A stretch of 64,000 bases of DNA from a virus, in IMG/VR virus record IMGVR_UViG_3300032024_000295. One strand, given 5' to 3'. The translations under genes were made by a program, and so were the position numbers. The notes under the pieces were generated by a model that saw only the letters and a list, made by a program, of their open reading frames with translations, was not told the DNA's origin and ran no database searches. Each line of letters begins with the position of its first letter. The first letter of the stretch is position 1. Positions 2,127 through 28,967 of this stretch are shown here, piece after piece.

Positions 2127-2134
2127 TATTTATA
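2127..2134 (-). promoter_or_regulatory. T4-like late promoter TATAAATA for terL
   Basis: Perfect consensus 32 bp upstream of the terL ATG; overlaps the TAA of the upstream gene. Confidence 0.7.
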
Positions 2135-2780
2135 ATCGCGCATATTCCTTCAATCCTGCCTCTATTAGCTCTTCTTGACAAGCCAAGATATCTCTATTGC
2201 CCTTATTGTGGTTATTGATAATAGAAATCATCTTTGATAGTTTATCATAATCAGGATGATTTTTATCTGACGCATCACTAGAAACCATTCCTAAATCTTT
2301 TATTTTAAGAAGCCCCAATGTAGAAGATTGACAATTTACAGGAATCATAATACGACCAACTTTATTGATATGCTTATAGATACCTGAGAAAGAAGCAATA
2401 GGATTGCGAATCAAATCTAATACGCCATCAATTTCTCGTGGCACGCCTTCAAATGATGTAATTTTGTTATTATAGCACTTAACATCGCCTCTTACTGTAT
2501 CAGGAAAGTTTTTGAATGAAATCAAATCGCAATCCTCTACATTAAAATTGCCAAGAGCCAGCGCAAAATTCCATTGTAATTCCGCGGTCATACCTTGTTT
2601 TAAACGTAAAATCAAATTAGCAACAGACTTCACTTTGAAACTAGAAACAGTGTATAAGTCGCCATCAATGTTTTTACGCACTGTGCCACCAGTGCGATTA
2701 TGCACAACTTTATATAAATCATCTGGCATTTTTTCTTCATCATCCAGCATCTCATTAATGAATAATTCTCTCAGTTTCAT
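2130..2780 (-). CDS. CQEELIEAGL-family protein, LRR-like body
   Basis: True start MKLRELFINE at 2780 (ATGA overlap, AAGGAG SD); FPDTVRGDVKCYNNKITSFEGVPREIDG repeat; ends RDILACQEELIEAGLKEYARL. Confidence 0.85.
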   Translation of the reverse strand: MKLRELFINEMLDDEEKMPDDLYKVVHNRTGGTVRKNIDGDLYTVSSFKVKSVANLILRLKQGMTAELQWNFALALGNFNVEDCDLISFKNFPDTVRGDVKCYNNKITSFEGVPREIDGVLDLIRNPIASFSGIYKHINKVGRIMIPVNCQSSTLGLLKIKDLGMVSSDASDKNHPDYDKLSKMISIINNHNKGNRDILACQEELIEAGLKEYARL

Positions 2781-3535
2781 AGTCGAGCAAACTCCTTTAG
2801 ACCTGCCTCTATTAATTCTTCTTGACAAGCGAGAATATCTCTATTGCCCATTAAATGTCTATTTAGAATAGCCAATGCATTATTAAAATCTGTTGTATTA
2901 TTTTCCCACGGCTTAAGCGAATTTGCAACATACACTACAATTTCTAATTTTTTAATTTTTAACAAACTCAGAATATGGCTTTTGATATTATGACAGTTTA
3001 TTAATTCTATTTGCTCAATTTTAGAATCACCCAAACCTGATAATTTTTCTAAATTAGGATAGCTTAATCTCAACATAGGAGCTTCAATACTTAAATTGGT
3101 AATTGATTTAGCATAGCTTTGAATACTGCAAATCGATTCAACAGACTCAGGACCGTCAGAAAAGTCGGTAATCCCTGATGCTACTAGATTGAAGTTAGTT
3201 TTAATTCGTTTAGGAAAGTTTTTTAATGATTTTAAAGTGTTAGCATTAAGATTTTCAACATACTGAAAGTGGCCGCCATCAAAATCATCTATCTGAAAAG
3301 GTAATTCTCTATTGTATAATAATGATGCATCGAATTTAGGATGATTACAATTTATTATAGAAATTGAATTAGAATCTTCACTATATTCTGCTGCATTTAA
3401 TCTAACCCGTTGCGAGGTATTAATTGACTTATTGCCCAAAAACACTTTATGCAATAATAGAATATACTTTTCCGGGTCAGTATATTCTTCAGAATCGTGT
3501 ATGCTCTCGTTAATGAATAATTCTCTTACTTTCAT
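2777..3535 (-). CDS. CQEELIEAGL-family protein, LRR-like body
   Basis: Start MKVRELFINE at 3535; LKSLKNFPKRIK..ITDFSDGPE repeats; ends RDILACQEELIEAGLKEFARL. Confidence 0.85.
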   Translation of the reverse strand: MKVRELFINESIHDSEEYTDPEKYILLLHKVFLGNKSINTSQRVRLNAAEYSEDSNSISIINCNHPKFDASLLYNRELPFQIDDFDGGHFQYVENLNANTLKSLKNFPKRIKTNFNLVASGITDFSDGPESVESICSIQSYAKSITNLSIEAPMLRLSYPNLEKLSGLGDSKIEQIELINCHNIKSHILSLLKIKKLEIVVYVANSLKPWENNTTDFNNALAILNRHLMGNRDILACQEELIEAGLKEFARL

Positions 3536-4053
3536 AGTCGTGCGTATTCCTTTAGTCCGGCTTCTATGAGCTCTTCTTGACAAGCCAAGATATCTCTATC
3601 AGATTCAAGATGCTTATTGATTATATCTCTAACTTTGCGATTAAAGTTAAAATGAATACGATCGAGTTTTTTAATTTTTAGAATACCCAACATATGCGAT
3701 TTAATAGGGCATCTGTCAATATCTAAGAATCCATTTATCTCTACCGAATAATCTTTTCCAATGCCTTTCAAATGTTGAATAGGATTGTCATATGCCCAAA
3801 CATTATATCCTACAATCATAGGAGCACCTTCAAGAGATTGAAGTTTATTGGAATTACATCTAAAAGACTGACCAACTTTTGGTGGTGAGTTTTTAAGTGA
3901 CCTCAATTGTATATCGGCACCATCAAAATCGCCATTCACATTCATAAACCGACTTTTAAACTCCCCATCGATTACCCTGAATGGAGGAAATCGAATGTCC
4001 CATGATGGCTCAACTTCTCCTTCATTCTCGTTAAATAATTCTCTTATTTTCAT
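3532..4053 (-). CDS. CQEELIEAGL-family protein, LRR-like body
   Basis: MKIRELFNE; LRSLKNSPPKVGQSFRCNSNKLQSLEGAPMIVG repeat; ends RDILACQEELIEAGLKEYARL. Confidence 0.85.
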   Translation of the reverse strand: MKIRELFNENEGEVEPSWDIRFPPFRVIDGEFKSRFMNVNGDFDGADIQLRSLKNSPPKVGQSFRCNSNKLQSLEGAPMIVGYNVWAYDNPIQHLKGIGKDYSVEINGFLDIDRCPIKSHMLGILKIKKLDRIHFNFNRKVRDIINKHLESDRDILACQEELIEAGLKEYARL

Positions 4054-4718
4054 AAATCCCCTTCGCTTCCATATTTTGCTGTCCTAAATGCGCCAGGTAA
4101 TTGACAACTTCCTTCAAGCCATAAGTTAAACCATTTTTCATGATCAGGATGATAATTTTCCATCTCCTCTTTAACAACCTGATTTGAGGTAGCTAACCAA
4201 AAATAACGGTGCTCATTGTCATTAATGCTATCGTCTTGTTTGGGTCTTTCGTCCATATCCGAAATAGAATTAGTTTCTTTATCCCAAGTGCTAACACTAA
4301 CAAACTGAGGTAGCTTTCTCCAAACCTTCTCAATTTCTGGAGATAGTGAATAACCATTGACTAAGTTGAATCCATTTCGTATAAGCTTAACATATAAATC
4401 AAGACCTAATCCTTGCTTCTGATATTGTGGATAGATAGTAATATCCATAACCCTCCAATAGTCTCTATCCCTTTGCAGCCACATATAGCCAACGATATCT
4501 TCTCTATCTTCTCTATCGACCAGAATAATGAATTTGTCTTTAACTCCAAATTCATCATATTCAAATACTACAATATTTTTCTTATTCGGAATAACTAATT
4601 GTAATTTCAATTGTTTTGCATCTGGTAGCCACTGTAAAATTTGATTCTTATCAAAACTACCACCTTGAGGCGCAGACCTAAACTCCTGAATTAAGGGCTT
4701 TATGTCTAACAATTTCAT
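4050..4718 (-). CDS. GNAT-fold acyltransferase-like protein; paralog of 15549-16220
   Basis: Acetyl-CoA motif A VMDITIYPQYQKQGLGLDLY; extensive similarity to the 15.5 kb ORF. Confidence 0.7.
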   Translation of the reverse strand: MKLLDIKPLIQEFRSAPQGGSFDKNQILQWLPDAKQLKLQLVIPNKKNIVVFEYDEFGVKDKFIILVDREDREDIVGYMWLQRDRDYWRVMDITIYPQYQKQGLGLDLYVKLIRNGFNLVNGYSLSPEIEKVWRKLPQFVSVSTWDKETNSISDMDERPKQDDSINDNEHRYFWLATSNQVVKEEMENYHPDHEKWFNLWLEGSCQLPGAFRTAKYGSEGDL

Positions 4719-5744: not shown

Positions 5745-6995
5745 TTAGTCCTCATTTACCATAGGCATGCCTCGGCCACCACTGTTTATCACATTGTATG
5801 GTGTCGTCTGAGGATTGCCAAAGAGCGTGTTAGTTGCAGTTTGCTGAGCAGAATTTGTAGTCTTATAGATAACATCTCTGGCTACAGTATTAAGAAATGG
5901 ATTTGCAATTCCACTCAAAACATTAGTTGAAACTTTATTAATAGCATTTCCAACAATCCCACCTATAGTGCCTTTTAAAATATTAGTAATTGGACTGAAT
6001 CCGCCACCGTTAGACCCTAAACTGTATCCGCCAAATCCATTAACCCCGCCGGCTATTTGATATCCAGCATCATAATCATGGCTAGTATTCAAGATGGAAT
6101 TGTCTGATTGAGGACCATACATGTCAGTGCCAACAGCGGCATACGGGGAGCGCTGAGCTGATGTTTCCTGTTGGTCAATATGGAGAATGTCATAATCAAA
6201 ACGGATAGTGGCATGATTACCAGGGTCTCCGCCTTCATGATGCGTCTCATCAAAACTCATATCAATGATACGTGGATTGACGAAGATAAAGGTATTCTGT
6301 TGAGCAGCATGGCCAAAGTATTGAATCAATCGAATAGCTTTAAGAGGATTAAATGTCCCATCTCGTAGTATTCCCCTAATAGCAGAATCTGACCTATCAG
6401 TTTGTTTTTCAGCGAAATTCATCCCGCTAGCTTCTAATTGAGCAATTGACTGCTGTTTATTCCACGTCCTAGAAGCAGGAGACCAGGCTTTAAGATAACG
6501 TCTGTAAAACTCTTGGAAGGTATCTTTGATATCGTCGATTAGAGTAATAGTAAGTGGCTCATGATGAATTGTCTTTAACACTTTTGTATGGAAGTTATAC
6601 ATATTGACATCTTCATAATCAAATGTTATCTTAGGTCTATCAATATGTTTTATGACATATTGAAATATATCGCTTCTAGCCGCGAGGTCAGTATAAGATG
6701 GGTCAAAATCAAAGATGACCCTAAACATAAAGCGATGTTTAGGTTGATATGCAATTAAGTCAGCAGCATAGTTTGTTGGTTGCCAGGTGTTATAGCTGCC
6801 AATAGGAGAGCCAGCGATAGACATCGGCCCACCATTAATAACGTTGTATTCTACACCACCACCGATTGGGTTATTCTGACCAAGCAATTGACCTGAGAAT
6901 TGACTGACTGCTGCGCCAAAAGTATTGTATGCGGTTTGCTGTAGTTGGACTCCAGCACCTGCTAGAGCACCAGAAAAATCTAAAACTGATGACAT
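5745..6995 (-). CDS. Tail-tube-fold protein, probable baseplate/tube initiator (gp54/gp48-like)
   Basis: gp19-fold signature IKHIDRPKITFDYEDVNMYNFHTKVLKTIHHEPLTITLIDD with long N- and C-terminal extensions. Confidence 0.6.
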   Translation of the reverse strand: MSSVLDFSGALAGAGVQLQQTAYNTFGAAVSQFSGQLLGQNNPIGGGVEYNVINGGPMSIAGSPIGSYNTWQPTNYAADLIAYQPKHRFMFRVIFDFDPSYTDLAARSDIFQYVIKHIDRPKITFDYEDVNMYNFHTKVLKTIHHEPLTITLIDDIKDTFQEFYRRYLKAWSPASRTWNKQQSIAQLEASGMNFAEKQTDRSDSAIRGILRDGTFNPLKAIRLIQYFGHAAQQNTFIFVNPRIIDMSFDETHHEGGDPGNHATIRFDYDILHIDQQETSAQRSPYAAVGTDMYGPQSDNSILNTSHDYDAGYQIAGGVNGFGGYSLGSNGGGFSPITNILKGTIGGIVGNAINKVSTNVLSGIANPFLNTVARDVIYKTTNSAQQTATNTLFGNPQTTPYNVINSGGRGMPMVNED

Positions 6996-7022: not shown

Positions 7023-7030
7023 TATTTATG
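7023..7030 (-). promoter_or_regulatory. Late promoter CATAAATA
   Basis: NATAAATA core about 28 bp upstream of the 6995 start, AAGGAG SD downstream. Confidence 0.55.
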
Positions 7031-7080: not shown

Positions 7081-8598
7081 ATGATAAAAGATAAAATAAA
7101 ATTACAACTTTTTGATGCCAAGGGATATGTGTCAGCAGCTAAGCTTCGCAAGATTTCTGAGGAATTAAAATCTGAAATATTGGCATTTGAAATTTCAAAC
7201 ATTGCAAGTAATGCTTCTTTACAAGAAAGAATTCATTGGATTTTAACTGACCGAAAAGATTATCCTAAATGCAAAAACTGTGGGGATAATTGCGTTTCAT
7301 TCAGGTCTATTAATGGTATCGGTTATGAAAGCACTATTTGCTCACGCGCGTGTCAATATGAAATGCGTGCAAAAACTAAAAAGCCAAAAATTATAATATC
7401 TAATGAGCAAAAACTGATTAATGCTGAGGATAGGAAACGTAAGCATATTGCTTCAATACAATCGGCTTTTGGCGTAGATTATCCTATGCAATCTTCAGAT
7501 GTTAGACGGAAAATGCTGAATACCCGATTACGAAATTGGTTTGAAAGACGAATAGAAAGTTGCTCAGCTATTGCTAGCCCATTATTTACCTTTGAGGAAT
7601 ATAAGTATTCTAAATCTTTACACCCCTGGGAATGCAAAACATGTGCCACTATTTTTAATGATACTATTGCAAATGGGTCTAATCCGCGATGTCCTAAATG
7701 TTTTCCTGCTTCGGTATCAAAACCGCAACAAGAAATAATTAACTTCATTCAATCTGAATTGGATGAGACATTGTTAATTAATGACAGACGGATAATTTAT
7801 CCATTGGAATTAGATATAGTTATTCCTTCTAAAAAATTATCTATCGAAGTTAATGGTGTTTATTGGCATTCAGAAAAATCTCAAACGTTTGAAAATAATC
7901 ATTTACAGAAGAAGCAAAAACTCGCAAAAGAAGTTGGATATGATGTTATATTCATTTTGGATAGTGAATGGTATTATCATCAAGAATTAGTTAAATCACG
8001 AATACGCAGCAAGTTAGGAAAATGCAAAACTATAATGGCACGAAAGTGTAATATTAATTTAGTGCCTCACCAAGTTGCTAAAAGCTTTATTCAGAATAAT
8101 CATATTCAAGGCAAAGATAATGCAACAATTTACTTAGGGCTCTATCACACTAATATTCTTATGGCGATAATGAGCTTTGGAAAATCACGATATAACAAAA
8201 ACTTCGAATGGGAATTACTTAGATATTGCACTACGCAAAATTATTCAATAACTGGCGGGGCACAGAAGCTATTGAAATATTTCGAAAATACTTTTTTGCC
8301 AAAATCTATAATTACTTATAGTGATAATAGATGGAATACTGGGAATTTATACAATCACTTAGGTTTCAATTACGATGGTGAAACTGGATTAGGATATTGC
8401 TACGTTGATAATAGAGGAAATATGCATTCACGTCAATCAATGCAGAAACATAAGCTTATGACAAAGCTAGAAAACTATAATAGCGATTTAACAGCCCATC
8501 AAAATCTACAACAACATGGTTATTATAGATTGTGGAATGCAGGGAATAAGCGATGGATTAAAACTTATTCCCTGCATAGCCAAAGATTATTAAGCTAA
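7081..8598 (+). CDS. Hef-like homing endonuclease (PD-(D/E)XK/DUF559-like)
   Basis: PLELDIVIPSKKLSIEVNGVYWHS, ARKC, NHIQG, WELLRYC, GGAQKL, TYSDNRW; CxxC Zn-finger pairs; opposite strand to its neighbours. Confidence 0.75.
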   Translation: MIKDKIKLQLFDAKGYVSAAKLRKISEELKSEILAFEISNIASNASLQERIHWILTDRKDYPKCKNCGDNCVSFRSINGIGYESTICSRACQYEMRAKTKKPKIIISNEQKLINAEDRKRKHIASIQSAFGVDYPMQSSDVRRKMLNTRLRNWFERRIESCSAIASPLFTFEEYKYSKSLHPWECKTCATIFNDTIANGSNPRCPKCFPASVSKPQQEIINFIQSELDETLLINDRRIIYPLELDIVIPSKKLSIEVNGVYWHSEKSQTFENNHLQKKQKLAKEVGYDVIFILDSEWYYHQELVKSRIRSKLGKCKTIMARKCNINLVPHQVAKSFIQNNHIQGKDNATIYLGLYHTNILMAIMSFGKSRYNKNFEWELLRYCTTQNYSITGGAQKLLKYFENTFLPKSIITYSDNRWNTGNLYNHLGFNYDGETGLGYCYVDNRGNMHSRQSMQKHKLMTKLENYNSDLTAHQNLQQHGYYRLWNAGNKRWIKTYSLHSQRLLS

Positions 8599-9371: not shown

Positions 9372-9641
9372 ATGATACTCCAAATAATTAATACCCTATT
9401 CAATAACCATAAGGAAAAGCAAATGTCAACAAACCCATTCACAGACGAGCATTATGAAAGATTGCAACAGGAATATGATTTCGTAGCTCAAACGATAGGC
9501 CATTTAAGAGAGCACTTTCAATATTTTGCAGTATCTAATGGAGGCATACCGAATGCAGATGAGGCGCTAAGACAACTTACAATAGAAAAGCTGAAATTAT
9601 ATGCGCAGATTGATTTCTTAAGAAATTATTTAGTTAACTAA
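9372..9641 (+). CDS. Hypothetical protein (start may be 9423, MSTNPF)
   Basis: ORF with AAGGAA SD before the second Met. Confidence 0.5.
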   Translation: MILQIINTLFNNHKEKQMSTNPFTDEHYERLQQEYDFVAQTIGHLREHFQYFAVSNGGIPNADEALRQLTIEKLKLYAQIDFLRNYLVN

Positions 9642-10402
9642 AACTTAGCAAATTGCTTTAAGCCTGCCTCAAGTAACTCTTCCTGGCAGGCTAAAAGGTC
9701 TCTATTCTTAAGAAACTTTTTCACAATCGCGAGAGCTCTTTCCCCATCATTAGCAAAGTTTGAGCTGTTTCCATTAGTCTGAAAGATAAGTGTTTCAAGG
9801 TGTTTCAATTTCAGTATCCCTAAAACATTCGATTTAATATCACACGCATTAATTTGAAGTGTTAGAAGATTTGGGCAATTGATATGAATATCATGTAATG
9901 TTTCAAGACCTGTGGCTGGTGCTCTTAAGCTTCTTAGTTTCGGCATTGATGCATCAATAGCTGTTAGTGCTTTTGATGCAAACAATGATAAGTTTTCTAC
10001 ATCAGGATGTATGCCTTTCAATGAAACCAATTTGTAAGAATATTGAGCTTCTAATTCTCTGACTGATGGGCAGTTTTCAAAATTGACAATATCATTATCC
10101 GATACTGTCAATGTATCAACTCTATCCACATTCAATTGAGATAGATTCACAAATCCACGGCATCCAGCAACATTATAAATCGTAACTTCGCCAAATTGCA
10201 CAGGCAATGGTTTTTTAAATATTGTTATTAATTTGCTAAACTTAACTCTGGCCGCAGATATCTTATAGGGCGGTTTTTCATCTACTTTATATCTATCATC
10301 ATAATGAATTCGACCTGAATTAATCTGTTTAACCCCCCACGCCTTAACTGCCTCATAAGTCATATCTACAATGGCATCTTCAAATAGCTCTTTAACTTTC
10401 AT
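9638..10402 (-). CDS. CQEELIEAGL-family protein, LRR body
   Basis: MKVKELFE; LxxLxLxxN-type repeats; ends RDLLACQEELLEAGLKQFAKF. Confidence 0.85.
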   Translation of the reverse strand: MKVKELFEDAIVDMTYEAVKAWGVKQINSGRIHYDDRYKVDEKPPYKISAARVKFSKLITIFKKPLPVQFGEVTIYNVAGCRGFVNLSQLNVDRVDTLTVSDNDIVNFENCPSVRELEAQYSYKLVSLKGIHPDVENLSLFASKALTAIDASMPKLRSLRAPATGLETLHDIHINCPNLLTLQINACDIKSNVLGILKLKHLETLIFQTNGNSSNFANDGERALAIVKKFLKNRDLLACQEELLEAGLKQFAKF

Positions 10403-12297: not shown

Positions 12298-12867
12298 TTA
12301 GCATATTCCTTTACTCGTACCAAATACCATTCCGGCTAATAATTGCTCCACACCTTGCACTTTCAAGAAACCTAGTAGAGGTCCTACATAATTGCCTGAA
12401 AGCGCCACCTGGCCGTTGAGAGTATGGATATGTCTATGCACATTACTAAAGGATACTTGAGGCAATCCTTCAAAATCGGCAGAGCCGTCTATGTGAGGTG
12501 TTATGCCTTCAAGTGATGTAATGTGAAAGTTTTTGAAGAAAGCAGAAATGACGAGAGCGTAGTGGAATTTGCTACCCGACTCCGCCATTCGTGTATCAAC
12601 TCTATCTGGAAAGTTTTTGAATGATTTACAATATTCGGCCATTACCATAAACTGACCAGTATGACCAAACTTGAATGGTAATTCTCCTTCTTCATCTAAC
12701 CAAGGACGTGTGATAACAACTTGACCATTCACATTGGCTTTTCTATCCAATACTTGGACAGAATTCACTTTGATAGTTGTGTTAAGACCTTTAAATTTTA
12801 CCCACGCCTTAAACTCTTTTTGAATACGTTGGTCTGAAATGCTTTCAAACAGCTCTCTTATCTTCAC
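12298..12867 (-). CDS. CQEELIEAGL-family member with C-terminal deletion
   Basis: GTG start (V)KIRELFE; LRR-like ITSLEGITPHIDG; GPLLGFLKV; out-of-frame remnant AAG GAA TAT GCT AAG CTA TAA (KEYAKL*) at the 3' end. Confidence 0.75.
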   Translation of the reverse strand: MKIRELFESISDQRIQKEFKAWVKFKGLNTTIKVNSVQVLDRKANVNGQVVITRPWLDEEGELPFKFGHTGQFMVMAEYCKSFKNFPDRVDTRMAESGSKFHYALVISAFFKNFHITSLEGITPHIDGSADFEGLPQVSFSNVHRHIHTLNGQVALSGNYVGPLLGFLKVQGVEQLLAGMVFGTSKGIC

Positions 12868-13127
12868 AGTTTAGCAAACTCCTTTAGACCCGCATCTATC
12901 AACTCTTCCTGACATTTTAACACATCTTTGTCGCCGCGTATATGATTTTGCACGATTTTGAGCCATGCTTCTTTACTTGACCCATTAAAATGGATGTCTG
13001 TGGTCCTAGCGAGTTGCAATAGACTTAGCACTGGTCCTTTTACACGGTCTGCATAATAGATACCGAGCTGTTTAGCTGTTGGAGTCTCTGCTTCTGTTAG
13101 TAGTAGAAATTGCTTAAAGCTTTGCAT
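12864..13127 (-). CDS. Minimal CQEELIEAGL-family protein (leader plus C-terminal module only)
   Basis: MQSFKQFLLLTE ... KDVLKCQEELIDAGLKEFAKL, 87 aa. Confidence 0.8.
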   Translation of the reverse strand: MQSFKQFLLLTEAETPTAKQLGIYYADRVKGPVLSLLQLARTTDIHFNGSSKEAWLKIVQNHIRGDKDVLKCQEELIDAGLKEFAKL

Positions 13128-13839
13128 GTTGTTTTAATCCTGCGTCTAATAAATCGTCTTGACAACCAAGAAGGTCTTTAGTATTTAGATGTTTTTTAAC
13201 AATTCTCAACCATTGGTCTTTAACAAATCCTGAGTCTAATGATATAAGATTTTTGAGAGACTTAATATTTAGAAGACCTAAGCCACCTGATTCTACTTGG
13301 CCTGCGCCGAATATCAAAATGGTTTGACAATCTAGAAGCTTATCAATACCTAACAATGAGACTTTTCTAGACAAATCACCATTGTAAGAAAGATTGATTT
13401 CAGGCCACTCGATTCTAGTTTTCAATGTCTCATTAATCCAAACTTTTTCTGGATAAGCAGAAACGAAGGCACTACCTAAAGCTTCATGGCAGAATGTAAT
13501 ACTTTCATTGAAAAACTTCTTCAATACATCGTGAGCCCCTTCAGCATCTTTTCTAATCGAATAGTTGAGTTGCACCTCTTCAATTGACATATCATCTGTG
13601 ATGACCTTTGCCTCAATGTTTGGCATCCCTAAATGTTTACGAAGAGCCGATGTTAGCTTCTTCTCAAGATACTCAGGATTCCATCTATAAACCCCCTTGA
13701 AATGACCAGGCTTTAACCAATGATCAGATAGACTCACTTTACTGACAGTGAAAGAGGTTGTGGCTAATGGGTATTTGTAGGTCTGATAATCTTCCCAAGG
13801 TTGAGAGACTTCAGTGATTAGCTCTTCTAGTATATTCAT
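13114..13839 (-). CDS. CQEELIEAGL-family protein
   Basis: True start MNILEEL at 13839 (ATGA overlap); ends KDLLGCQDDLLDAGLKQHAKL. Confidence 0.8.
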   Translation of the reverse strand: MNILEELITEVSQPWEDYQTYKYPLATTSFTVSKVSLSDHWLKPGHFKGVYRWNPEYLEKKLTSALRKHLGMPNIEAKVITDDMSIEEVQLNYSIRKDAEGAHDVLKKFFNESITFCHEALGSAFVSAYPEKVWINETLKTRIEWPEINLSYNGDLSRKVSLLGIDKLLDCQTILIFGAGQVESGGLGLLNIKSLKNLISLDSGFVKDQWLRIVKKHLNTKDLLGCQDDLLDAGLKQHAKL

Positions 13840-14450
13840 AGTTTCGCGTATTGTTTTAGTCCTGCTTCGATTAGCTCTTCTTGACATCCTAAGATATCAT
13901 GCGACATTGTATTTAGATACTTATCAACAAACTTAACCCAGGTTGGTTTAATATGGCCAACAATCGTAACAATATTCTTCATTTTGACTAATGTTAAAAC
14001 CCCGCCTGTAACATTCATCGGTTTGTTAAGATAGAAACTTCTGCATTTGATTACTTTATCAAGCCCAGAAATCGACGTATCAGGAGCTTCTGCAAAAAAC
14101 GCTATTGAATCGGCTTCTATTAAATGGTCAGGGACGCTAGTAATATCTATTATATCCAAAACAAATGGCATATCTAATTCATATTCTACCAATATTGCTT
14201 CTATTTCTTTTCTAACTTTTTCAATATTCTGCTTATTTAATTCTTTAGCTGGCACGTATCCGAATTTAATTTTGCATCTCTTTGCAGTATTAAGAATATG
14301 TTTGCTAACCCAATTACCTAATTGAATTTTTAAAATCTTTTGCCAAGCACCTGCGAAATAGAATGACTCCATTTTTGAAGTATCAAAAATAAATGTTAAT
14401 TCACCAGTTGCATTATTGTCCGCTTCAAAAAACAATTCTTCAATTCTCAT
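13836..14450 (-). CDS. CQEELIEAGL-family protein
   Basis: MRIEELFFE; ends HDILGCQEELIEAGLKQYAKL. Confidence 0.8.
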   Translation of the reverse strand: MRIEELFFEADNNATGELTFIFDTSKMESFYFAGAWQKILKIQLGNWVSKHILNTAKRCKIKFGYVPAKELNKQNIEKVRKEIEAILVEYELDMPFVLDIIDITSVPDHLIEADSIAFFAEAPDTSISGLDKVIKCRSFYLNKPMNVTGGVLTLVKMKNIVTIVGHIKPTWVKFVDKYLNTMSHDILGCQEELIEAGLKQYAKL

Positions 14451-15145
14451 AATTTTGCATAGTCCTTAAATCCCGCTTCTAGTAAATCTTCTTGGGATTT
14501 CAACATATCTTTACCATTATCAAAGTTGTAAATTATAATTTTTAACCACGTATTTGGGGCCAAAGTGGAAGTAAGTGTTTCTAATCCCTTGATTTTAAGT
14601 AATCCTATCCCACCATCAATTATAAAACTTTGGCGAGAAATTTGCAGTTTTCGACAATGAGATATTTGTTTGTGGATATTTCGAAGAGATATCTTCTGAC
14701 CTGTATATGCCGAAATTTGTATACTCGGATAATCAATTACCATTGACGGGTCTAGTGTTGCAACAATCCAAACATATTTGTCAAATGAGGTGAAGGCTTC
14801 TGGATAATGGTCAGACATTTCACCCAACATAAATTCGTGAAACAATTTATCAAACTCTTCCAATGTTTTTTCGATAGCGTCTTCAGTCCCTTGAGAAGCA
14901 CTTTCGATATCAATTAACACTGATATTTCGCCACGTCCATATATAGCTTCAATAGTGCGACCCATCTGTTGGCCGATTATATTATGGCTAATATCGGTAT
15001 TGAGGGCACTACCATTCAAGTTTTGATTATTCTCATCATAGAAATACTTACCAGGAATGTCCTTTAGTGGGACAGTATAGGTCACGTGTATCTTAGGAAG
15101 TGTACCACTAATCCCTTCGCTAATAAAATGTTTGAATGATTTCAT
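14447..15145 (-). CDS. CQEELIEAGL-family protein with T4 IP-like leader
   Basis: MKSFKHFISE (cf. T4 IPIII MKTYQEFIAE); ends KDMLKSQEDLLEAGFKDYAKL. Confidence 0.8.
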   Translation of the reverse strand: MKSFKHFISEGISGTLPKIHVTYTVPLKDIPGKYFYDENNQNLNGSALNTDISHNIIGQQMGRTIEAIYGRGEISVLIDIESASQGTEDAIEKTLEEFDKLFHEFMLGEMSDHYPEAFTSFDKYVWIVATLDPSMVIDYPSIQISAYTGQKISLRNIHKQISHCRKLQISRQSFIIDGGIGLLKIKGLETLTSTLAPNTWLKIIIYNFDNGKDMLKSQEDLLEAGFKDYAKL

Positions 15146-19181: not shown

Positions 19182-19870
19182 TCATTCAATTTCGTAGTAA
19201 ATCCTACAACTCCGGCGAATTCATTACCGGAGTTTCTTTCAGGGACAATCACCCCCACATACGGTCTAAAGTTAGAAGTTAACTTGTAGAAGACGTTGAA
19301 GGTTGTGCCTGACATATTGTTATTGCCAGAGTAATAGTCTGCTAATACGACTACATCTTTGTAGTGATACTTAAATCCTGTTGAGAAGTTATACGGTTGA
19401 TGGATAGTTGCTAAGACATCATTCACATAATATCCGCCAAAGTGAATGTTTAGGTTTTTTGAAACCTGATAGTTGATGTCCATAGTTGCTGTCGCATGGA
19501 GTTGTTGAAGATTATCATTCATATTGGTGCCAATCATTGCGCCTGTCTCAAATTTCAAATCTTCTGAGATATCAAAAGACCGACCTATGTTGATGTAAGT
19601 ATCACTCTCGTAATTCTGTGCTTGCTTACCAGCCAATCTGATATTCGCTGACTGCAGCCCAAATGACCACGATGACCCGTAATACTGCAATGATAAGGTA
19701 TCATATACAGTATTACGGTAAAGGTTAAGCTCACTACCTAGGATGACCTTGTAGAGATGTGTGTCATCTTGCATTCGTTTAGGGCGAATAGCTATCTCAG
19801 CATTTACACTTGCCGATATCAGAATTGCGCAAAAGCCTTTAAGCCGGCGTCTATTAATTCTTCTTGACAT
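19178..19870 (-). CDS. Putative outer-membrane beta-barrel / exported protein
   Basis: Signal-peptide-like N-terminus ending VNA|E; alternating amphipathic strands rich in Y/F/G; start uncertain. Confidence 0.5.
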   Translation of the reverse strand: MSRRINRRRLKGFCAILISASVNAEIAIRPKRMQDDTHLYKVILGSELNLYRNTVYDTLSLQYYGSSWSFGLQSANIRLAGKQAQNYESDTYINIGRSFDISEDLKFETGAMIGTNMNDNLQQLHATATMDINYQVSKNLNIHFGGYYVNDVLATIHQPYNFSTGFKYHYKDVVVLADYYSGNNNMSGTTFNVFYKLTSNFRPYVGVIVPERNSGNEFAGVVGFTTKLND

Positions 19871-19965
19871 TGAAGGATATCTACTTTTTTGGTTGCTAAG
19901 TGCTTATTCATAATATGAGTGGCCGTTTCGCTCACCTGATGTATTAGCAAAAGCGCAAAAGCCAT
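19819..19965 (-). CDS. 48-aa mini-gene consisting of the CQEELIEAGL module
   Basis: Manual translation MAFALLLIHQVSETATHIMNKHLATKKVDILQCQEELIDAGLKAFAQF*; GAAGGAA SD; below the ORF-track cutoff. Confidence 0.6.
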   Translation of the reverse strand: MAFALLLIHQVSETATHIMNKHLATKKVDILQCQEELIDAGLKAFAQF

Positions 19966-20002
19966 CGTTGTTAATTCCTTCTATATGGTCAGAGAATTAA
20001 AA

Positions 20003-20260: not shown

Positions 20261-20279
20261 GTGTGTAATCTCCGTAGTT

Positions 20280-20801: not shown

Positions 20802-20810
20802 ACGCGCTAA

Positions 20811-21344: not shown

Positions 21345-21375
21345 AAATTACTCCGCTTTTCTAACATCTTAAACA

Positions 21376-21413
21376 GATAAAGCCGGTATCATTTGCTGAT
21401 TACCGGCTTTATC
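21376..21413. terminator. Intrinsic terminator-like hairpin
   Basis: 13-bp stem GATAAAGCCGGTA/TACCGGCTTTATC after the 21442 ORF stop. Confidence 0.6.
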
Positions 21414-21441
21414 ATTTCTCTCGTACGATCGAGTAGTTAGT

Positions 21442-22032: not shown

Positions 22033-22110
22033 AATTATATTCCTCTGCTTTGTAAATAAAAAATTAAAATTAAGGGACTATTTCTAGTCCCTTAAAATAA
22101 CGACTAAAAA

Positions 22111-23354: not shown

Positions 23355-25145
23355 ATGGCAACACCTATTGCACCGTATACACCGCCAAGTCTTTGCATCG
23401 GCAATTGGACTATCCAGAATGATTGCACCACAGGGTCAGATAGCAAGACCATTGAAAACCAGGTTGCAGAAAGCCTTGAGATTGCGGGCGCTCCGATTGC
23501 TATCTTCAAGTTGCTTGGAGTCCACGAGCAAGGCAAACTGATTGACCTGACAGGTCAAGGCTCTCCTCTATCGAATGGCACAGGAGCCGGCTCAGATGTG
23601 ACCAATGCTTTTGACATCTCTTCATCCTCTTGGAAGTCTGCACAAACTGGCACTGATGTTGTAGTTGCTCCTGCCTACCTTGGCTACAACTTTGGCACGA
23701 AGAAGACTGCAACTGGGACTGAGCGATACGCGCCATCTGCCAACATCATCCAACACATCACAACCATTCGCATTCAACAAGGGGCTCTACCTCAAAACCG
23801 AGCGCTTCAGATACGAGTGGATAGAGCAACAGGTCAAGTGTTTCCGAATGTGAGTTTTGCTGGGACAGGAAATGGACAGCTAACACATTCGCTACAACCT
23901 GTGTATGCACCGAAAGAAAGCACTACCCTTATCACGTCAACCTCTCCGACAACGTTCTCCGTTATTAGCTCACTTGAAGGGCCATTAGGGACTGCAACTC
24001 TCGGCCAACCATTCGCTTCTCAATCGGTCCGTTTCACCATTCTCGCAGGGGCAATACCTTTCGTAGTTGGAGATACTTTCACAATCAAATTACTTTTAGA
24101 TTGGAAACGAGTTGATGTGGTCAATTTGCCAGACACGTCAAACCTTGAAACTATTTCAATTCAAACCTCATCACCTTCTACCTTCTGGCGTATAGTCCCA
24201 TTGCTATTCTCGGGAGGCCTGGGTGATGCCTGGGAAATAACCAAACTCGAGATGATAGACTATCAGTCTACCTCAATCAATAATATCCAAGACACCCTCT
24301 TCCTCGAAAACAGAGATAGAGATTATTCACAATCTTCAATTACACTCAAGTGTCAGTATCAACCATTTGACAGCGTAGGGGACCTTGGAAAGTTTGGCTT
24401 CTCTATCCTCGATCAGTATATCTTCACTTGCTCTTTCGCAAGAATGGTGGAATTACTGGGAAGACCCATTGTTGTTGGTGATATTCTGGAAATTACACCA
24501 GAATTACAATATGACCAAAATCTAAACCCTGTCAAGAAGTTTCTAGAGGTAACAGATTGTGGATGGTCCGCTGAAGGCTATACTCCTCAATGGAAACCAA
24601 TCCTGTATCGCTTTCAGGCTATCCAGTTGCTACCTTCTGTAGAAGTCCGTGATATCATCAAGATGCCAGAAGAAGAATTATTCACGGTATCTGATGGCAC
24701 CTTCTTTGACAAACTTTCTTCTCAGACGCAAACTACTCCTACTCTCGTATCTGAAACTATTGCCGCTGAAGCTGCTGATAAAGTGCCAGAAAGAGGAGAG
24801 GATTTACAAGACGTTGCAGTTGTGCCAGAATTACCAGATGCAAACATCGTGCAGAATTCGATGTTTATCGAAAACGGACTTCCTCCTAATGGGCTTCCGT
24901 ATGGTGAGGGATACAAACTTCCTGACACCGCAACTTTAACCCCAGGAAATGACGGTGATTACTTTAGACTAAACTATGCATCGAATATGAATATTCCTCC
25001 AAGATTGTATAAGTTTAGCGCTCTTAAAGGAAGATGGATTTATGTCGAAACAGATATGAGAGATAGCTACTCAAGCCATAAACCTTCAGTACGAAATGCA
25101 TTAGTCAGCTTGAATAAGAAATCGCTACAAGATACAAACTTATGA
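23355..25145 (+). CDS. Neck/head-closure protein (T4 gp14-like) with inserted beta-domains
   Basis: ESLEIAGAPIAIFKL, LFLENRDRDY, DLGKFGF, GDILEI motifs of the gp14 family. Confidence 0.8.
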   Translation: MATPIAPYTPPSLCIGNWTIQNDCTTGSDSKTIENQVAESLEIAGAPIAIFKLLGVHEQGKLIDLTGQGSPLSNGTGAGSDVTNAFDISSSSWKSAQTGTDVVVAPAYLGYNFGTKKTATGTERYAPSANIIQHITTIRIQQGALPQNRALQIRVDRATGQVFPNVSFAGTGNGQLTHSLQPVYAPKESTTLITSTSPTTFSVISSLEGPLGTATLGQPFASQSVRFTILAGAIPFVVGDTFTIKLLLDWKRVDVVNLPDTSNLETISIQTSSPSTFWRIVPLLFSGGLGDAWEITKLEMIDYQSTSINNIQDTLFLENRDRDYSQSSITLKCQYQPFDSVGDLGKFGFSILDQYIFTCSFARMVELLGRPIVVGDILEITPELQYDQNLNPVKKFLEVTDCGWSAEGYTPQWKPILYRFQAIQLLPSVEVRDIIKMPEEELFTVSDGTFFDKLSSQTQTTPTLVSETIAAEAADKVPERGEDLQDVAVVPELPDANIVQNSMFIENGLPPNGLPYGEGYKLPDTATLTPGNDGDYFRLNYASNMNIPPRLYKFSALKGRWIYVETDMRDSYSSHKPSVRNALVSLNKKSLQDTNL

Positions 25146-25708
25146 AATTAGATGAGATTTTTGATACGAAATTAGATTTATCTTGGCAGCTACACGGGAG
25201 ACATGAGCTTACATCTTTCACCGTTGAAGATAAAACTTTTGTTATCCAGATAGAGAGAAGACCTCTCTCAGAAGTGCCTGAAACTAACGGTCTGAAAACC
25301 GCTGAAGTTTCATTCTATCGACACGACCTAGACAATGATGATGCTTTTAACACAACAAAAGAAAGTCCTAAAATGACAAGCGCAATTTACGGTATCATGA
25401 CAAATGCGGTAGCTGTAAAGTTTGAAAGCTACGATGTATTTTATTTTTCTGCAGAAAGAAAACATTCTTCAAATCAAGAAGAGTATGAAACTAAAGTTCG
25501 AATTTATGATGCACTTTCTAGACGAGTTAAAGGTCGATACAAAAATGTCTTTAGATATGAAGCTGAAGTGCAAGACAAGATGCAGTTTATTGTTTCTAAG
25601 CAAGAGCTAAAAGACGATACCGTATTCAAAGATATGATGAAAGAAGCACTTTTGTTATACACTCAACAACATACAATATTAGAGATAAGCAAGAAGCAAG
25701 ACATATAG
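25142..25708 (+). CDS. Hypothetical protein, MKLDEIFD leader
   Basis: ORF coupled to gp14 by a 4-nt overlap. Confidence 0.65.
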   Translation: MKLDEIFDTKLDLSWQLHGRHELTSFTVEDKTFVIQIERRPLSEVPETNGLKTAEVSFYRHDLDNDDAFNTTKESPKMTSAIYGIMTNAVAVKFESYDVFYFSAERKHSSNQEEYETKVRIYDALSRRVKGRYKNVFRYEAEVQDKMQFIVSKQELKDDTVFKDMMKEALLLYTQQHTILEISKKQDI

Positions 25709-25713
25709 ACAGT

Positions 25714-27475: not shown

Positions 27476-27479
27476 TTTT

Positions 27480-28037
27480 TTACTGGACTACGTTATAACC
27501 ACGGCCTCTCATACACGTAACAAAACCTTTTTTGTAGGCCGTATCCGCAGTTGACGCTCCATACAGTGCAGCGGGGATTGCAGCGATTGAGCCATATTGA
27601 GCACCTTTAGCTGGGTCTCCAGAGATTGCACCAAATGCAGCACCTGCAGCTGCACCACCTAGAGCACCAACAACTCCATTCGTTGCAACTGAAGTGCCGT
27701 AGCTTGCTGCATTTGCTGCTAAGTCTTGGCAATCAACTTCGTCTTGACGAACGTTTTGTACGGGCTGATAATACTGTTGAGGCGCATAATACTGAGGTTG
27801 AGAAGCGTAGTATGGTTGTTGATAGTATTGTCGCTGTTGAGGTTGTTGGTAATACTGTTGCTGACCACCACCAACTTGAGGTCCAGAAATGTAGCCACCT
27901 GAGATAGTGCGACCACCACCAGAATTATAGGAGACGTTATCATATGTTGGTCTATAGCCACCATATTGAGCGCAACCAGAAACTAATACACTGCTGACTA
28001 CTGCTATCATCACTAAGGTTTTCATCTTTATCACCAT
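27480..28037 (-). CDS. Glycine-zipper lipoprotein (YMGG-like)
   Basis: Lipobox VSG|C; GALGGAAAGAAFGAISG zipper; CMRGRGY tail. Confidence 0.75.
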   Translation of the reverse strand: MVIKMKTLVMIAVVSSVLVSGCAQYGGYRPTYDNVSYNSGGGRTISGGYISGPQVGGGQQQYYQQPQQRQYYQQPYYASQPQYYAPQQYYQPVQNVRQDEVDCQDLAANAASYGTSVATNGVVGALGGAAAGAAFGAISGDPAKGAQYGSIAAIPAALYGASTADTAYKKGFVTCMRGRGYNVVQ

Positions 28038-28064
28038 TTAGGGTTTGTTTCAAACTATGATGAT

Positions 28065-28109
28065 ATTGTATACCATTTCTCTAAAATGTAAACAAGAATA
28101 AATGTTAAC
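28065..28109 (-). promoter_or_regulatory. Early promoter TTTACA-16-TACAAT with upstream GTTAAC box
   Basis: -10 at 28065-28070, -35 at 28087-28092, GTTAAC at 28104-28109. Confidence 0.6.
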
Positions 28110-28119
28110 CAGTTATCGT

Positions 28120-28967
28120 TTATCTTGCAAAATCCTTAAATCCGGCTTCAACTAATTCTTCTTGACATAAAAAGATATCTCGCTCAGGAGTGCCAAGATG
28201 TTTGTTGAAAATCTTATTGACTTGTGATGTACCATCTGCATCTAAATCTGTGTTGGAAAACCAAACACGCTTGATGTTTTTAGAGCGAAACACTAAAAGT
28301 GGTCTCCCAGTCTTTGCATTAAAATCCATGATAGATATCATCTGAAGTTTAGGACAAGCCTTGAGAATTGACTGCACATCTGAATACGTATTGAGTGTTA
28401 GATATTCTAATGATGAGGGTATACCCTCAATTGATAATAATGGGGAGCGAATTCCTAACGATACTACATGTGGCATACCTACTAAGTTTTTAAGTGGTGA
28501 AATCGAGCTAATTTCGATATCATAATTAATACCTCCATTATCACTCTTAGATGCCACATGTTTTGGCAATCCGGTACAATCTTCAATATCAACTTTAGTT
28601 AATTTAAGATGGCCTAACATAACATGTGGCAATCCTTCAAGAGATTGCAATCCCCATTCATCTGTTTCAAAAACTCCTGAAATAGCAAATTGCACTGGAA
28701 GCTTCCATTTACCTTCATGTTGCACAAGACCTGCAGTGTTGTCTTTAGCACTCCAAGTCCAAATTCGCACTTCACCTTCTGATGGATGGACTTCTAATTC
28801 TTTTGATATTTGACCTTTAATTTTCATAAGGTCAAGCCACTCCTGTATCTCTTGTTTAGTCTGATACATCCAAGGCTTTAGATTAGGAGCATATGGACTA
28901 GCTGCTTTTTACGAGGAGCTTCGTTAATTATGTTTGGCGATGATGAGTAAAGGTCGTTTAGTTTCAT
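28120..28967 (-). CDS. CQEELIEAGL-family LRR-like protein; 5' end frameshifted at an A5 run (28906-28910)
   Basis: MKLNDLY...APRK|KAASPYAPNLKPWMYQ joins with one extra A; LQSLEGLPHV repeats; ends RDIFLCQEELVEAGFKDFAR. Confidence 0.75.

What the first reader, a model, noticed from the sequence alone, without database searches (positions are those of the whole stretch)
2130..28967. Expanded family of 11 variable, probably virion-packaged proteins sharing a C-terminal CQEELIEAGL module
Seen: genes ending at 2130, 2777, 3532, 9638, 12864, 13114, 13836, 14447, 19819 and 28120, plus a remnant at 12298, end in [RKHV]D[ILVM]xxCQEE[LI]xEAG[LF]KxxA[RKQ][LF]* (Ser replaces Cys in one). In most members this follows GxLxLLKIKxL...IxxKHL. 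The bodies are highly divergent, several with LxSLEGxPxxV LRR-like repeats, and the full-length members start with MKxRELFxE or MKSFKxFISE leaders. Third-position codons differ among copies, so selection acts on the peptide, not the DNA. Known: T4 internal proteins carry an N-terminal capsid-targeting sequence and are ejected into the host. Inference: a modular effector arsenal (leader / variable binding solenoid / constant ~55-aa terminal domain). The constant tail may be a solenoid cap, an ejection signal or a dock for a shared partner, with the bodies binding diverse host defence proteins. I do not recognise a named family; this is the best candidate for an undescribed system here.
Basis: partly seen in the sequence, partly recalled or inferred. 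Interest (0 to 1): 0.9.

Follow-up and report, generated by a model that had tools for sequence, protein, structure and literature searches.

The report
Leader-tagged LRR family in jumbo phage
An uncultured giant relative of phage T4 carries eleven copies (eight intact) of an uncatalogued small leucine-rich-repeat protein with a variable body, a strongly conserved helical end-cap and usually a T4-like head-loading tag. One relative's copy is an abundant virion protein, so these are probably particle-borne proteins, perhaps delivered into the host.

Summary
Ten minus-strand ORFs end in the CQEELIEAGL module and an eleventh (12298-12867) has lost it. Eight copies are intact and three are decayed. 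Synonymous sites in the tail are saturated (pS 0.74, pN 0.18), so selection acts on the peptide.

The module is not in Pfam or PHROGs. A tail profile finds 2,095 protein clusters (482 at E<=1e-10). In the 151 sequences retrieved, the module is always C-terminal, mostly in proteins of about 200 aa. Copies are often tandem and sit between terminase, neck and tail genes.

AlphaFold2 models show a floppy leader, an LRR solenoid of the SDS22 class, then a final LRR turn and three helices. The 'tail' is therefore mainly a family-specific LRR C-cap, not a free-standing signal.

Packaging has real but indirect support. RsoM2USA ORF89 is a family member and is reported among that phage's ten most abundant virion bands. 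Leaders resemble the T4 capsid-targeting sequence, RsoM2USA encodes a gp21-type protease, and the genes lie in operons with late-promoter-like boxes. Internal location, cleavage, ejection and anti-defence roles are untested.

This scan has already noted leader-tagged repeat-protein arrays in other jumbo phages on other DNA. Verdict: a new variant of a known kind, of moderate to high interest.

The parts
2130..2780 (-). Family member, 216 aa. MKLRELFINE leader, LRR body, intact tail. Last gene of the operon before the terminase.
   Evidence: (tail HMM E 6e-27)
2777..3535 (-). Family member, 252 aa. MKVRELFINE leader, LRR body, intact tail. ATGA overlap with the next gene.
3532..4053 (-). Family member, 173 aa, the shortest full LRR member. 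This is the copy modelled: leader 1-25 is floppy, the solenoid runs about 26-135, and the helices are 139-150, 155-164 and 168-171.
9638..10402 (-). Family member, 254 aa. MKVKELFED leader, LRR body, tail ends in F. It has a 40%-identical counterpart in a 314-kb ENA phage contig.
12298..12867 (-). Decayed member, 189 aa with a GTG start. Leader and LRR body are kept up to LLGFLKVQ. Most of the tail is deleted, and KEYAKL-stop survives in another frame.
12864..13127 (-). Mini-member, 87 aa. MQSFKQFLLLTE leader, last LRR turn and tail only. Its start overlaps the previous gene's tail by 14 nt.
   Evidence: (E 6e-31), 56 row 3, 107
13114..13839 (-). Family member, 241 aa, class B (non-LRR N-domain, short LRR, tail). 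Leader-like MNILEELITE.
13836..14450 (-). Family member, 204 aa, class B. This copy was modelled: an alpha/beta N-domain, a short LRR stretch and the tail helices.
14447..15145 (-). Family member, 232 aa, class B. MKSFKHFISE leader (closest to the T4 CTS). Ser stands in place of the tail Cys.
19819..19965 (-). 48-aa relic consisting of the tail only. The body has been replaced by an island of signal-peptide genes.
28120..28869 (-). Family member, 249 aa. LRR body; the tail lacks the final Leu. The ORF as it stands has no leader.
28878..28967 (-). Detached MKLNDLY leader ORF of the 28120 member. It is out of frame with the body, and the frames overlap near the A5 run at 28906-28910.
   Evidence: the in-frame counterpart is in L002
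17607..17613 (-). Late-promoter-like ATAAATA box, 53 nt upstream of gene 16400-17560. It heads the gene string 17560 to 12298, which contains five family genes.
7023..7029 (-). Late-promoter-like ATAAATA box, 34 nt upstream of gene 5745-6995. It heads the gene string 6995 to 2130 (tube-like gene, gp4-like head closure gene, then three family genes).

Best explanation
These genes form an expanded, uncatalogued family of small leucine-rich-repeat proteins found in T4-related jumbo phages. Each protein has four parts:
- a short flexible N-terminal leader, either MK[LIV]xELFxE or M[KQ][ST]FKxF[LI]xE, that resembles the T4 capsid-targeting sequence and contains hydrophobic-x-Glu;
- a linker;
- a highly variable body, either a 22-residue-period LRR solenoid or an alpha/beta domain plus a short LRR;
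- a conserved final LRR turn plus three helices (the CQEELIEAGL module) that cap the solenoid.

Shown here: the family exists, it is under peptide-level selection, the fold prediction is confident, and the genes sit among neck, tail and terminase genes.

From a paper (not tested here): one member in a cultured relative is reported as an abundant virion protein.

Inferred: the genes are expressed late. The leader loads the proteins into the prohead core, where a gp21-type protease trims it. The mature proteins of about 20-28 kDa travel in the particle and enter the host with the DNA. Their variable concave faces then bind different host targets, and an arms race drives the paralog diversity. 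The tail is primarily a structural cap or folding nucleus. Any docking role is secondary and unproven.
For: Family and selection:
- Ten tails plus one deleted copy.
- pS 0.74 against pN 0.18 in the tail; identity 0.60 in the tail against 0.18 in the bodies.
- 2,095 clusters match the tail profile. In all 151 sequences retrieved the match ends within 2 residues of the C-terminus; median length is 214 aa.

Fold:
- Model A has pLDDT 89.9, and 97-98 over the tail. The tail helices follow the last strand.
- Best solved matches are SDS22 (Z 11.6, rmsd 2.4 A over 119 residues, reaching model residue 150), U2A' (to 169) and dynein LC1 (to 166), all LRR proteins with C-terminal caps.

Virion association:
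- PMC8504454 section 25 lists ORF89 (28.57 kDa) among the ten abundant bands of purified RsoM2USA virions.
- RsoM2USA_89 is a family member, calculated at 28.56 kDa.
- Virion proteins ORF132 and ORF438 carry related FKQ[FY] leaders. Three of ten, given about 12 of 486 ORFs, gives hypergeometric p = 0.0013, a post hoc figure.

Leader:
- The T4 CTS is MKTYQEFIAE and is cleaved once by the prohead protease (PMC8442874; PMC5694885).
- 94 of 128 full-length family representatives carry one of the two leaders, and 90 of these have [LIFVM]xE within 16 residues.
- The leader is floppy in the model.
- RsoM2USA encodes a Peptidase_S77 (gp21-type) protease at 103 bits.

Timing and context:
- Family arrays lie between TerL, tail tube, gp4-like, gp13-, gp14- and gp15-like genes and the sheath gene, in this window and in many IMG/VR and ENA contigs.
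- ATAAATA boxes sit 34-53 nt upstream of the operon heads and of the TerL, tube and sheath genes.

Precedent: SPN3US packs a 20-member paralog family in its head (PMC5694885).
Against: - No data exist for this phage itself. The window has no head genes and the rest of the genome is not held.
- Virion evidence is one gel-band identification in a relative whose copies share only about 25-30% identity with the window's.
- That identification does not say head versus tail or surface, nor whether the leader is cut.
- The proteins are acidic to neutral (pI 5.5-8.9 here, 4.8-5.1 in RsoM2USA), unlike the highly basic T4 internal proteins.
- The genes lie in the neck and tail module, not with head genes.
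- The MK[LIV]xE[LI] leader type also heads about 40 further ORFs of about 200 aa in RsoM2USA, mostly tandem. That may be too many for all to be packaged, and no protein with this leader type has been detected in virions.
- The overall count of ATAAATA is not above chance (26 found, 27.5 expected). Only its placement is suggestive.
Confidence: 0.5

Rival explanations
1. External virion proteins. The family members decorate the outside of the particle (neck, collar, sheath or capsid). The conserved C-terminal unit anchors them to a common site, and the variable LRR faces act as interchangeable adhesins for host surface structures.
For: - The genes are embedded among neck and tail genes (gp13-, gp14- and gp15-like, sheath, tube) in many contigs.
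- ORF89 is abundant in RsoM2USA virions, with no information on its location.
- An acidic pI fits a surface protein better than a DNA-embedded one.
- The conserved polar tail residues D, Q, E, E and K could form a docking surface.
- Earlier scan notes describe leader-tagged adhesin-like modules on another jumbo phage (e1-168303).
Against: - The leaders resemble the T4 head-targeting tag and contain protease-type sites.
- The lineage has a gp21-type protease.
- The proteins are small and, as far as predicted, monomeric solenoids rather than typical trimeric fibres.
- In the model the tail is packed as a cap on the protein's own solenoid.
Confidence: 0.2
2. Non-structural intracellular adaptors. 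This would be the phage analogue of poxvirus ankyrin/PRANC or F-box proteins. The variable LRR bodies capture different host proteins, and the constant three-helix tail plugs them into one shared partner, such as a host protease or chaperone or a phage factor. Virion detection of ORF89 would then be incidental.
For: - The architecture is a variable repeat body plus a constant helical C-terminal unit of about 45 aa.
- Near-invariant polar positions D55, C59, Q60 and E62 exceed what a hydrophobic cap strictly needs.
- Tail-only mini-proteins recur: 12864-13127 here, and an 88-aa viral Atlas cluster of 79 members at TM 0.96.
- An iterated tail profile reaches 31 ORFs in RsoM2USA, which is more than one would expect to be packaged.
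Against: - No F-box or PRANC hit, or any other Pfam hit, in the tail, and no PDB sequence match.
- ORF89 is one of the ten most abundant virion bands.
- The genes have late-operon placement.
- Conserved caps flanking hypervariable LRRs are usual in diversifying LRR families (general knowledge, for example lamprey VLRs).
- No partner has been identified.
Confidence: 0.15
3. The tail is conserved for DNA-level reasons. Either it serves as a translational-coupling cassette (Shine-Dalgarno plus overlapping start for the next gene), or recent gene conversion among tandem copies keeps it uniform, rather than any protein function.
For: In several tandem junctions the codons for L-K-E/D spell AAGGA about 12 nt before an ATGA or GTGA overlap start.
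Against: - Synonymous sites in the tail are saturated (pS 0.74) while the peptide is kept (pN 0.18).
- The constraint could cover only the last 6 codons or so, not 75 residues.
- The tail is equally conserved in solitary and array-terminal copies (2130, 9638, 28120) and across 2,095 clusters.
Confidence: 0.03

Closest known systems
T4 internal proteins IPI, IPII, IPIII (and Alt) with the capsid-targeting sequence MKTYQEFIAE
   Same: A short N-terminal leader ends in hydrophobic-x-Glu and sits on otherwise diverse small proteins. A gp21-type prohead protease is present in the lineage. The cargo set is variable and lineage-specific. One relative's copy is present in virions.
   Different: The T4 proteins are highly basic, unrelated in fold, number only three, and share nothing but the leader. 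The proteins here are acidic to neutral LRR proteins, also share a C-terminal unit of about 75-90 aa, and occur in arrays of 10 or more inside the neck/tail module. Cleavage and ejection are untested.
SPN3US / phiKZ head paralog families (SPN3US family B has 20 head proteins of unknown function)
   Same: A jumbo phage carries a large family of diverged paralogs that are virion (head) proteins. Member numbers vary strongly between related phages.
   Different: No sequence similarity was detected: tblastn finds the tail only in RsoM2USA among 50,697 phage records. The fold and leader differ, and so does the phage lineage (T4-like XacN1/RsoM2USA group rather than phiKZ-like).
SDS22-class LRR proteins with a helical C-cap (SDS22, U2A', dynein LC1, ANP32)
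   Same: The predicted solenoid geometry matches, and the first tail helix superposes on their caps (Z 10-11.6). The cap closes the hydrophobic core after the last repeat.
   Different: No Pfam or PDB sequence match in the tail. The cap sequence (DILxCQEELIxAGLKxYAKL) is family-specific, far more conserved than the repeats, and restricted to phage contigs. Those proteins are cellular and single-copy.
Injected bacterial LRR effectors (YopM, IpaH/SspH LRR domains)
   Same: A short-period bacterial-type LRR serves as the variable target-binding module of proteins delivered into another cell. SspH1 and IpaH LRR domains are among the top Foldseek matches.
   Different: Those are delivered by type III secretion, not in a phage particle, and IpaH/SspH carry a catalytic NEL ligase domain. 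The phage tail is only about 45 helical residues, and its Cys is replaced by Ser, Leu or Val in some members.
Poxvirus ankyrin-repeat / PRANC (F-box-like) multigene families
   Same: The architecture matches: a variable repeat solenoid, a short constant helical C-terminal module, and many paralogs per large viral genome.
   Different: There is no sequence relation and no Pfam F-box or PRANC hit. Bacteria lack SCF ligases, and no shared partner is known. This is an analogy only.
Leader-tagged DUF285-type LRR arrays in gut and oral jumbo phages
   Same: More than 20 LRR-like paralogs carry a floppy T4-CTS-like leader and conserved ends that were judged to be structural caps.
   Different: This is a different repeat family (no DUF285 hit here), a different cap sequence and a different phage lineage. 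Those notes are unchecked AI findings.

Membership tests
T4-type CTS-addressed internal head proteins | N-terminal leader of about 10 residues resembling MKTYQEFIAE and ending in Leu/Ile-x-Glu | tested here: met
   14447 (MKSFKHFISE) and 12864 (MQSFKQFLLLTE) match closely. Six others carry MK[LIV]xELFxE with an [LIF]xE site. 94 of 128 family representatives carry one of the two leaders. The T4 sequence comes from PMC8442874.
T4-type CTS-addressed internal head proteins | gp21-type prohead protease encoded by the same phage | tested here: inconclusive
   The window has no match to the RsoM2USA protease or major capsid protein, and the rest of the genome is not held. The relative RsoM2USA has PF03420 at 103 bits.
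T4-type CTS-addressed internal head proteins | Physical presence inside purified heads, with the leader removed | not testable with these tools
   Literature only: RsoM2USA ORF89 is reported in virion bands (PMC8504454). Location and processing are not reported.
T4-type CTS-addressed internal head proteins | Small, highly basic, DNA-associated proteins | tested here: not met
   pI is 5.5-8.9 in the window and 4.75-5.08 for RsoM2USA ORFs 88-90.
Leucine-rich repeat proteins (SDS22-like class) | Tandem repeats with an LxxLxLxxN/C-type core, period about 22 | tested here: met
   The consensus of 56 class-A members reads ...LTSLxGxPxxVxGxFxCxxNxLTSLEGxP.... The model shows repeated short strands.
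Leucine-rich repeat proteins (SDS22-like class) | Solenoid fold superposable on solved LRR proteins | tested here: met
   For the predicted model: SDS22 Z 11.6, rmsd 2.4 A over 119 residues; U2A' Z 10.3; LC1 Z 10.3. All top Foldseek hits are LRR proteins.
Leucine-rich repeat proteins (SDS22-like class) | Pfam LRR model above its curated threshold | tested here: inconclusive
   The window's members give only sub-threshold LRR hits. 6 of 56 relatives hit LRR_4, best E 1e-7.
Catalogued LRR C-terminal caps (LRRcap / LRRCT / LRR_9) | Sequence signature of a known cap in the tail | tested here: not met
   No Pfam hit over the tail at E<=1. No PHROG family. The tail profile against PDB sequences gives a best E of 0.05, to a de novo design. 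Structurally, the tail occupies the cap position.
F-box / PRANC repeat-protein adaptors | F-box or PRANC sequence signature in the constant C-terminal module | tested here: not met
   No such Pfam hit in any of the ten members.
DUF285-type phage LRR arrays | Pfam DUF285 match | tested here: not met
   Absent.

The most novel reading that the evidence does not exclude
The conserved C-terminal unit is more than a cap. It would be a portable docking module that plugs dozens of variable LRR binders into one shared partner, such as the prohead core or portal, a host protease or chaperone, or a phage factor. That would give tailed phages a counterpart of the eukaryotic-virus repeat-plus-F-box adaptor families. 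The recurring tail-only mini-proteins could then act as regulators or competitors.
Probability: 0.15. Interest if true: 0.85.

Novelty: new variant of a known kind. Interest (0 to 1): 0.6.

Why it matters
Jumbo phages devote a sizeable share of their genomes to unexplained paralog arrays. This one defines a large sequence family: at least 2,095 clusters at 50% identity, up to 7 copies in 5 kb, and possibly about 31 ORFs in one cultured phage. It has a confident fold, no Pfam or PHROG family, and one member that is reported as an abundant virion protein.

If these are head-loaded, ejected LRR binders, they would extend the T4 internal-protein paradigm (three basic proteins) to arsenals of programmable binding scaffolds. 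They would also offer a ready source of host-target binders and a testable packaging tag. RsoM2USA is a cultured system in which this can be tested directly.

Tried and rejected
- **Complex prediction, two copies of the tail-only mini-protein (residues 18-87):** no verdict, score 0.00, partner pLDDT about 40. This is not evidence either way.
- **Megablast of 20 kb against phages:** no match.
- **tblastn of family members against 50,697 phage records:** the tail is found only in RsoM2USA. Vibrio phages SRILMA and TDDLMA and three uncultured megaphage records match the LRR body only. One metagenomic member found nothing.
- **XacN1:** no tail match at E<=1, so its virion proteome could not be used.
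- **Class-B body:** no convincing solved-fold match. Foldseek TM is about 0.3; the best VIA Z is 7.3 to a STAS-like chain over residues 4-101, within the noise range.
- **Protein Atlas look-up of the mini-protein:** scores of 0.76 or lower, uninformative.
- **Sequencing-run search:** only two DNA holders, a cave metagenome and a biofilm metagenome, both possibly the source sample. No RNA holder is listed, so there is nothing on expression.
- **Exact T4 late promoter TATAAATA:** not enriched (10 found, 6.8 expected). ATAAATA: 26 found, 27.5 expected. Only the placement upstream of structural operons is suggestive.
- **Genome-collection scan:** the tail appears in one 330-kb contig of a MAG labelled Pseudobdellovibrionaceae, at 7 loci. 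I read this as a binned jumbo-phage contig, not as a cellular homologue or a host assignment.
- **RsoM2USA ORF257 and ORF438 masses:** the paper's values (17.57 and 51.69 kDa) do not match the GenBank ORFs (19.65 and 62.43 kDa). I did not interpret the gap as processing.

Full report
**What the window is.** The window has 37.8% G+C. It carries a T4-type large terminase, a gp4-like head-closure gene, tail tube and sheath genes, and gp13-, gp14- and gp15-like neck genes. Homing endonuclease genes are interspersed among them. The closest cultured relatives by terminase are jumbo myophages: Ralstonia RsoM2USA at 42% identity, then XacN1, Xoo-sp13 and PA5oct. There is no nucleotide-level match to any GenBank phage. 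The contig is 132.7 kb. The only runs that hold it are a cave metagenome and a biofilm metagenome. No whole genome is held for the window.

**The observation.** A profile of the last 75 residues scores these ten at E 1e-18 to 6e-31 and nothing else in the window. The true starts are ATGs that overlap the previous stop (ATGA), so the proteins begin with MK[LVI][RK]ELF..., MKSFKHFISE or MQSFKQFL.
- Over 19 tail codons, mean pS is 0.74 and pN 0.18. Third-position identity is 0.48.
- Paralogs share 60% identity in the last 24 residues but only 18% in the bodies.

**Decayed copies.** Three copies are damaged.
- 19819-19965 is a 48-aa relic with no body.
- 12298-12867 lost most of the tail by an internal deletion. 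KEYAKL-stop is still readable in another frame.
- The 28120 copy has its MKLNDLY leader (ATG at 28967) out of frame with the body, near an A5 run. A relative has the leader in frame.

**Is it catalogued?** Pfam and PHROGs give no family for any member, nor for the RsoM2USA relatives. The tail profile finds nothing meaningful among PDB sequences.

**How widespread is it?**
- Against 1.84 billion representative proteins, the tail profile finds 2,095 clusters at E<=1e-3 and 482 at E<=1e-10.
- In the 151 sequences retrieved, the match always ends within two residues of the C-terminus. Median length is 214 aa.
- The ten looked up come from metagenomes. Six are labelled 'hypothetical protein' and four carry no name.
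- Three proteins of about 500-590 aa are natural head-to-tail fusions of two units.
- Among 50,697 GenBank phage records, the tail appears only in RsoM2USA.
- Among 185,579 prokaryote species genomes, it appears only in one 330-kb contig with seven loci, evidently a binned jumbo phage.
- ESM Atlas structural neighbours are viral 'hypothetical' clusters without a Pfam family.

The refutation condition 'already a catalogued generic cap in unrelated single-copy proteins' is therefore not met at the sequence level.

**Copy number and context.** The family is typically multi-copy and tandem.
- At least 9 copies lie in 20 kb of a 314-kb ENA contig.
- At least 11 lie on one 58-kb IMG/VR contig.
- There are 7 in 5.3 kb and 6 in 4.1 kb on two other contigs.
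- The arrays repeatedly occupy the gaps between TerL, tail tube, a tube-like gene, gp4-like, gp13-, gp14- and gp15-like genes and the sheath gene, often next to homing endonuclease genes.
- In RsoM2USA the narrow profile finds 5 copies. An iterated profile converges on 31 ORFs, 24 of them in tandem arrays of about 195-aa MKLxEI proteins at 188-213 kb with a degenerate tail (FDLQxxLIxxGF). These E-values come from a small local database, so that wider count is provisional.

**Structure.**
- *Model A* (3532-4053, 56-sequence alignment) is confident: pLDDT 89.9, pTM 0.81. Residues 1-25 are floppy. Then comes a solenoid of short strands, a last strand at 132-134, and helices at 139-150, 155-164 and 168-171 with pLDDT 97-98.
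- All top solved matches are LRR proteins. On re-alignment the best is SDS22 (Z 11.6, 2.4 A over 119 residues, reaching model residue 150). U2A' and dynein LC1 reach residues 166-169. These are LRR proteins with C-terminal caps.
- The 'tail' is therefore the terminal LRR turn (LGLLKIKxL) plus a three-helix cap (IxNKHL / DILxCQEELIxAG / KxYAKL).
- *Model B* (13836-14450, pLDDT 86) has an alpha/beta N-domain without a convincing solved match. A short LRR stretch and the same cap follow it.
- The window thus holds six members with long LRR bodies, three class-B members, one mini-member (leader plus last turn plus cap) and one relic.

**Why call it a cap, and what remains open.** Conserved caps flanking hypervariable repeats are normal for diversifying LRR families, so the cap reading is the economical one. 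Three things keep a docking role alive as a minority reading:
- near-invariant polar positions D55, C59, Q60 and E62;
- recurrent tail-only mini-proteins (an Atlas cluster of 79 members, TM 0.96);

The Cys is not universal. It is Ser in one window copy and Leu or Val in distant RsoM2USA members. A homodimer prediction for the mini-protein gave no verdict.

**Are the proteins in virions?**
- The RsoM2USA paper excised the ten most abundant bands of purified virions for LC-MS/MS. It lists ORF89 (28.57 kDa) among them, with ORF86, ORF132 and ORF438 as other uncharacterised proteins (PMC8504454).
- RsoM2USA_89 is the middle gene of three tandem family members. Its calculated mass is 28.56 kDa.
- ORF132 (calculated 76.62 kDa, locus tag confirmed) starts MKTFKQFLNTLME. 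ORF438 contains MLTFKQY near its start.
- With about 12 such leaders among 486 ORFs, three in ten has hypergeometric p = 0.0013. This is a post hoc figure.
- The T4 capsid-targeting sequence is MKTYQEFIAE, removed by the prohead protease (PMC8442874; PMC5694885).
- RsoM2USA encodes a Peptidase_S77 gp21-type protease just upstream of its capsid gene.
- In this window the family genes lie in two long overlapping gene strings, 6995 to 2130 and 17560 to 12298. Each is headed by an ATAAATA box 34-53 nt upstream. The terminase, tube and sheath genes have the same box.
- The box is not enriched overall, so only its placement is suggestive.
- SPN3US shows that a jumbo phage can pack a 20-member paralog family in its head.

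**Limits.**
- The virion evidence comes from a distant relative. It gives neither location nor processing.
- The proteins are acidic to neutral, unlike T4 internal proteins.
- The MK[LIV]xE[LI] leader type has no proteomic support. In RsoM2USA it also heads about 40 further ORFs.
- Ejection and anti-defence roles are pure inference.

I therefore give 0.5 to the head-loaded, ejected LRR-binder model, 0.2 to externally displayed adhesin-like proteins anchored by the tail, and 0.15 to non-structural adaptors with a docking tail. A DNA-level explanation of tail conservation gets about 0.03. The last six codons do double as Shine-Dalgarno and start for the next gene, but synonymous saturation rules this out as the main cause.

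**Novelty.** The family and its cap sequence appear undescribed. Full-text searches for LRR ejection proteins, for capsid targeting with jumbo-phage paralogs, and the RsoM2USA and XacN1 papers themselves, describe nothing like it. The kind of thing is known, however: leader-tagged variable proteins in T4-like heads, and paralog families in jumbo-phage heads. This scan has already noted leader-tagged LRR and other arrays in other jumbo phages on other DNA. I class it as a new variant of a known kind, with interest 0.6.

Noticed in passing
window 4050-4718 (-) and 15549-16286 (-; probable start at 16214): Two paralogous GNAT acetyltransferase-domain proteins (Acetyltransf_1 at 22.4 and 28.7 bits, cut-off 20.7). 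Each carries a leader-like N-terminus (MKLLDIK..., MKSTFRQFISE) and sits next to a family array. A homologue lies next to a family gene in L012.
   Followed up: partly
window 15146-15484, 16400-17560, 25142-25708 (+), 39739-40347, 44115-44474, 60510-60962: Unrelated ORFs begin with the same MK[LI]x[ED][LI]F-type leader as the family. 44115 and 60510 look like paralogs of each other.
   Followed up: partly
window 10404-11006 and 11160-12233 (-): A DUF2201_N metallopeptidase-like ORF and a vWA-like ORF (DSSGSM motif) are separate here. In RsoM2USA (ORF85) and in several IMG/VR contigs they form one ORF of about 610-640 aa. In RsoM2USA this gene lies next to ORF86, a 96-kDa virion protein with a Walker A motif.
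   Followed up: partly
window 19178-22545 (-): An island of five or six small genes with signal-peptide or lipoprotein-like N-termini sits between the gp13-like and gp14-like genes. It includes a possible beta-barrel protein at 19178-19870, whose start lies in the alternate frame of the relic tail.
   Followed up: no
window 5745-6995, 7081-8598, 8590-9225; 31101-32681: The tail-tube gene and a 416-aa tube-like gene are separated by a 505-aa homing endonuclease gene on the opposite strand. A second paralogous endonuclease gene follows the sheath gene. Relatives place such endonuclease genes in the same gaps as the family arrays.
   Followed up: partly
RsoM2USA (MG752970.1) 171-214 kb; loci L036-L038: About 40 ORFs of about 195 aa, mostly tandem, start MK/RLxEI. 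Many end in a degenerate version of the tail (FDLQxxLIxxGF). 24 of them are reached by the iterated tail profile. None has a PHROG family.
   Followed up: partly
window junctions 2777/2780, 3532/3535, 12864/12867, 13114/13127, 13836/13839, 14447/14450: The last tail codons overlap the next gene's start (ATGA or GTGA, or a 14-nt overlap). In several junctions the L-K-E/D codons spell AAGGA about 12 nt upstream, consistent with translational coupling.
   Followed up: partly
L051-L057 (CAZFPB010000002.1, 330 kb): A contig filed under a Pseudobdellovibrionaceae MAG carries at least seven tail-family loci. It is probably a jumbo-phage genome binned with a bacterium.
   Followed up: no
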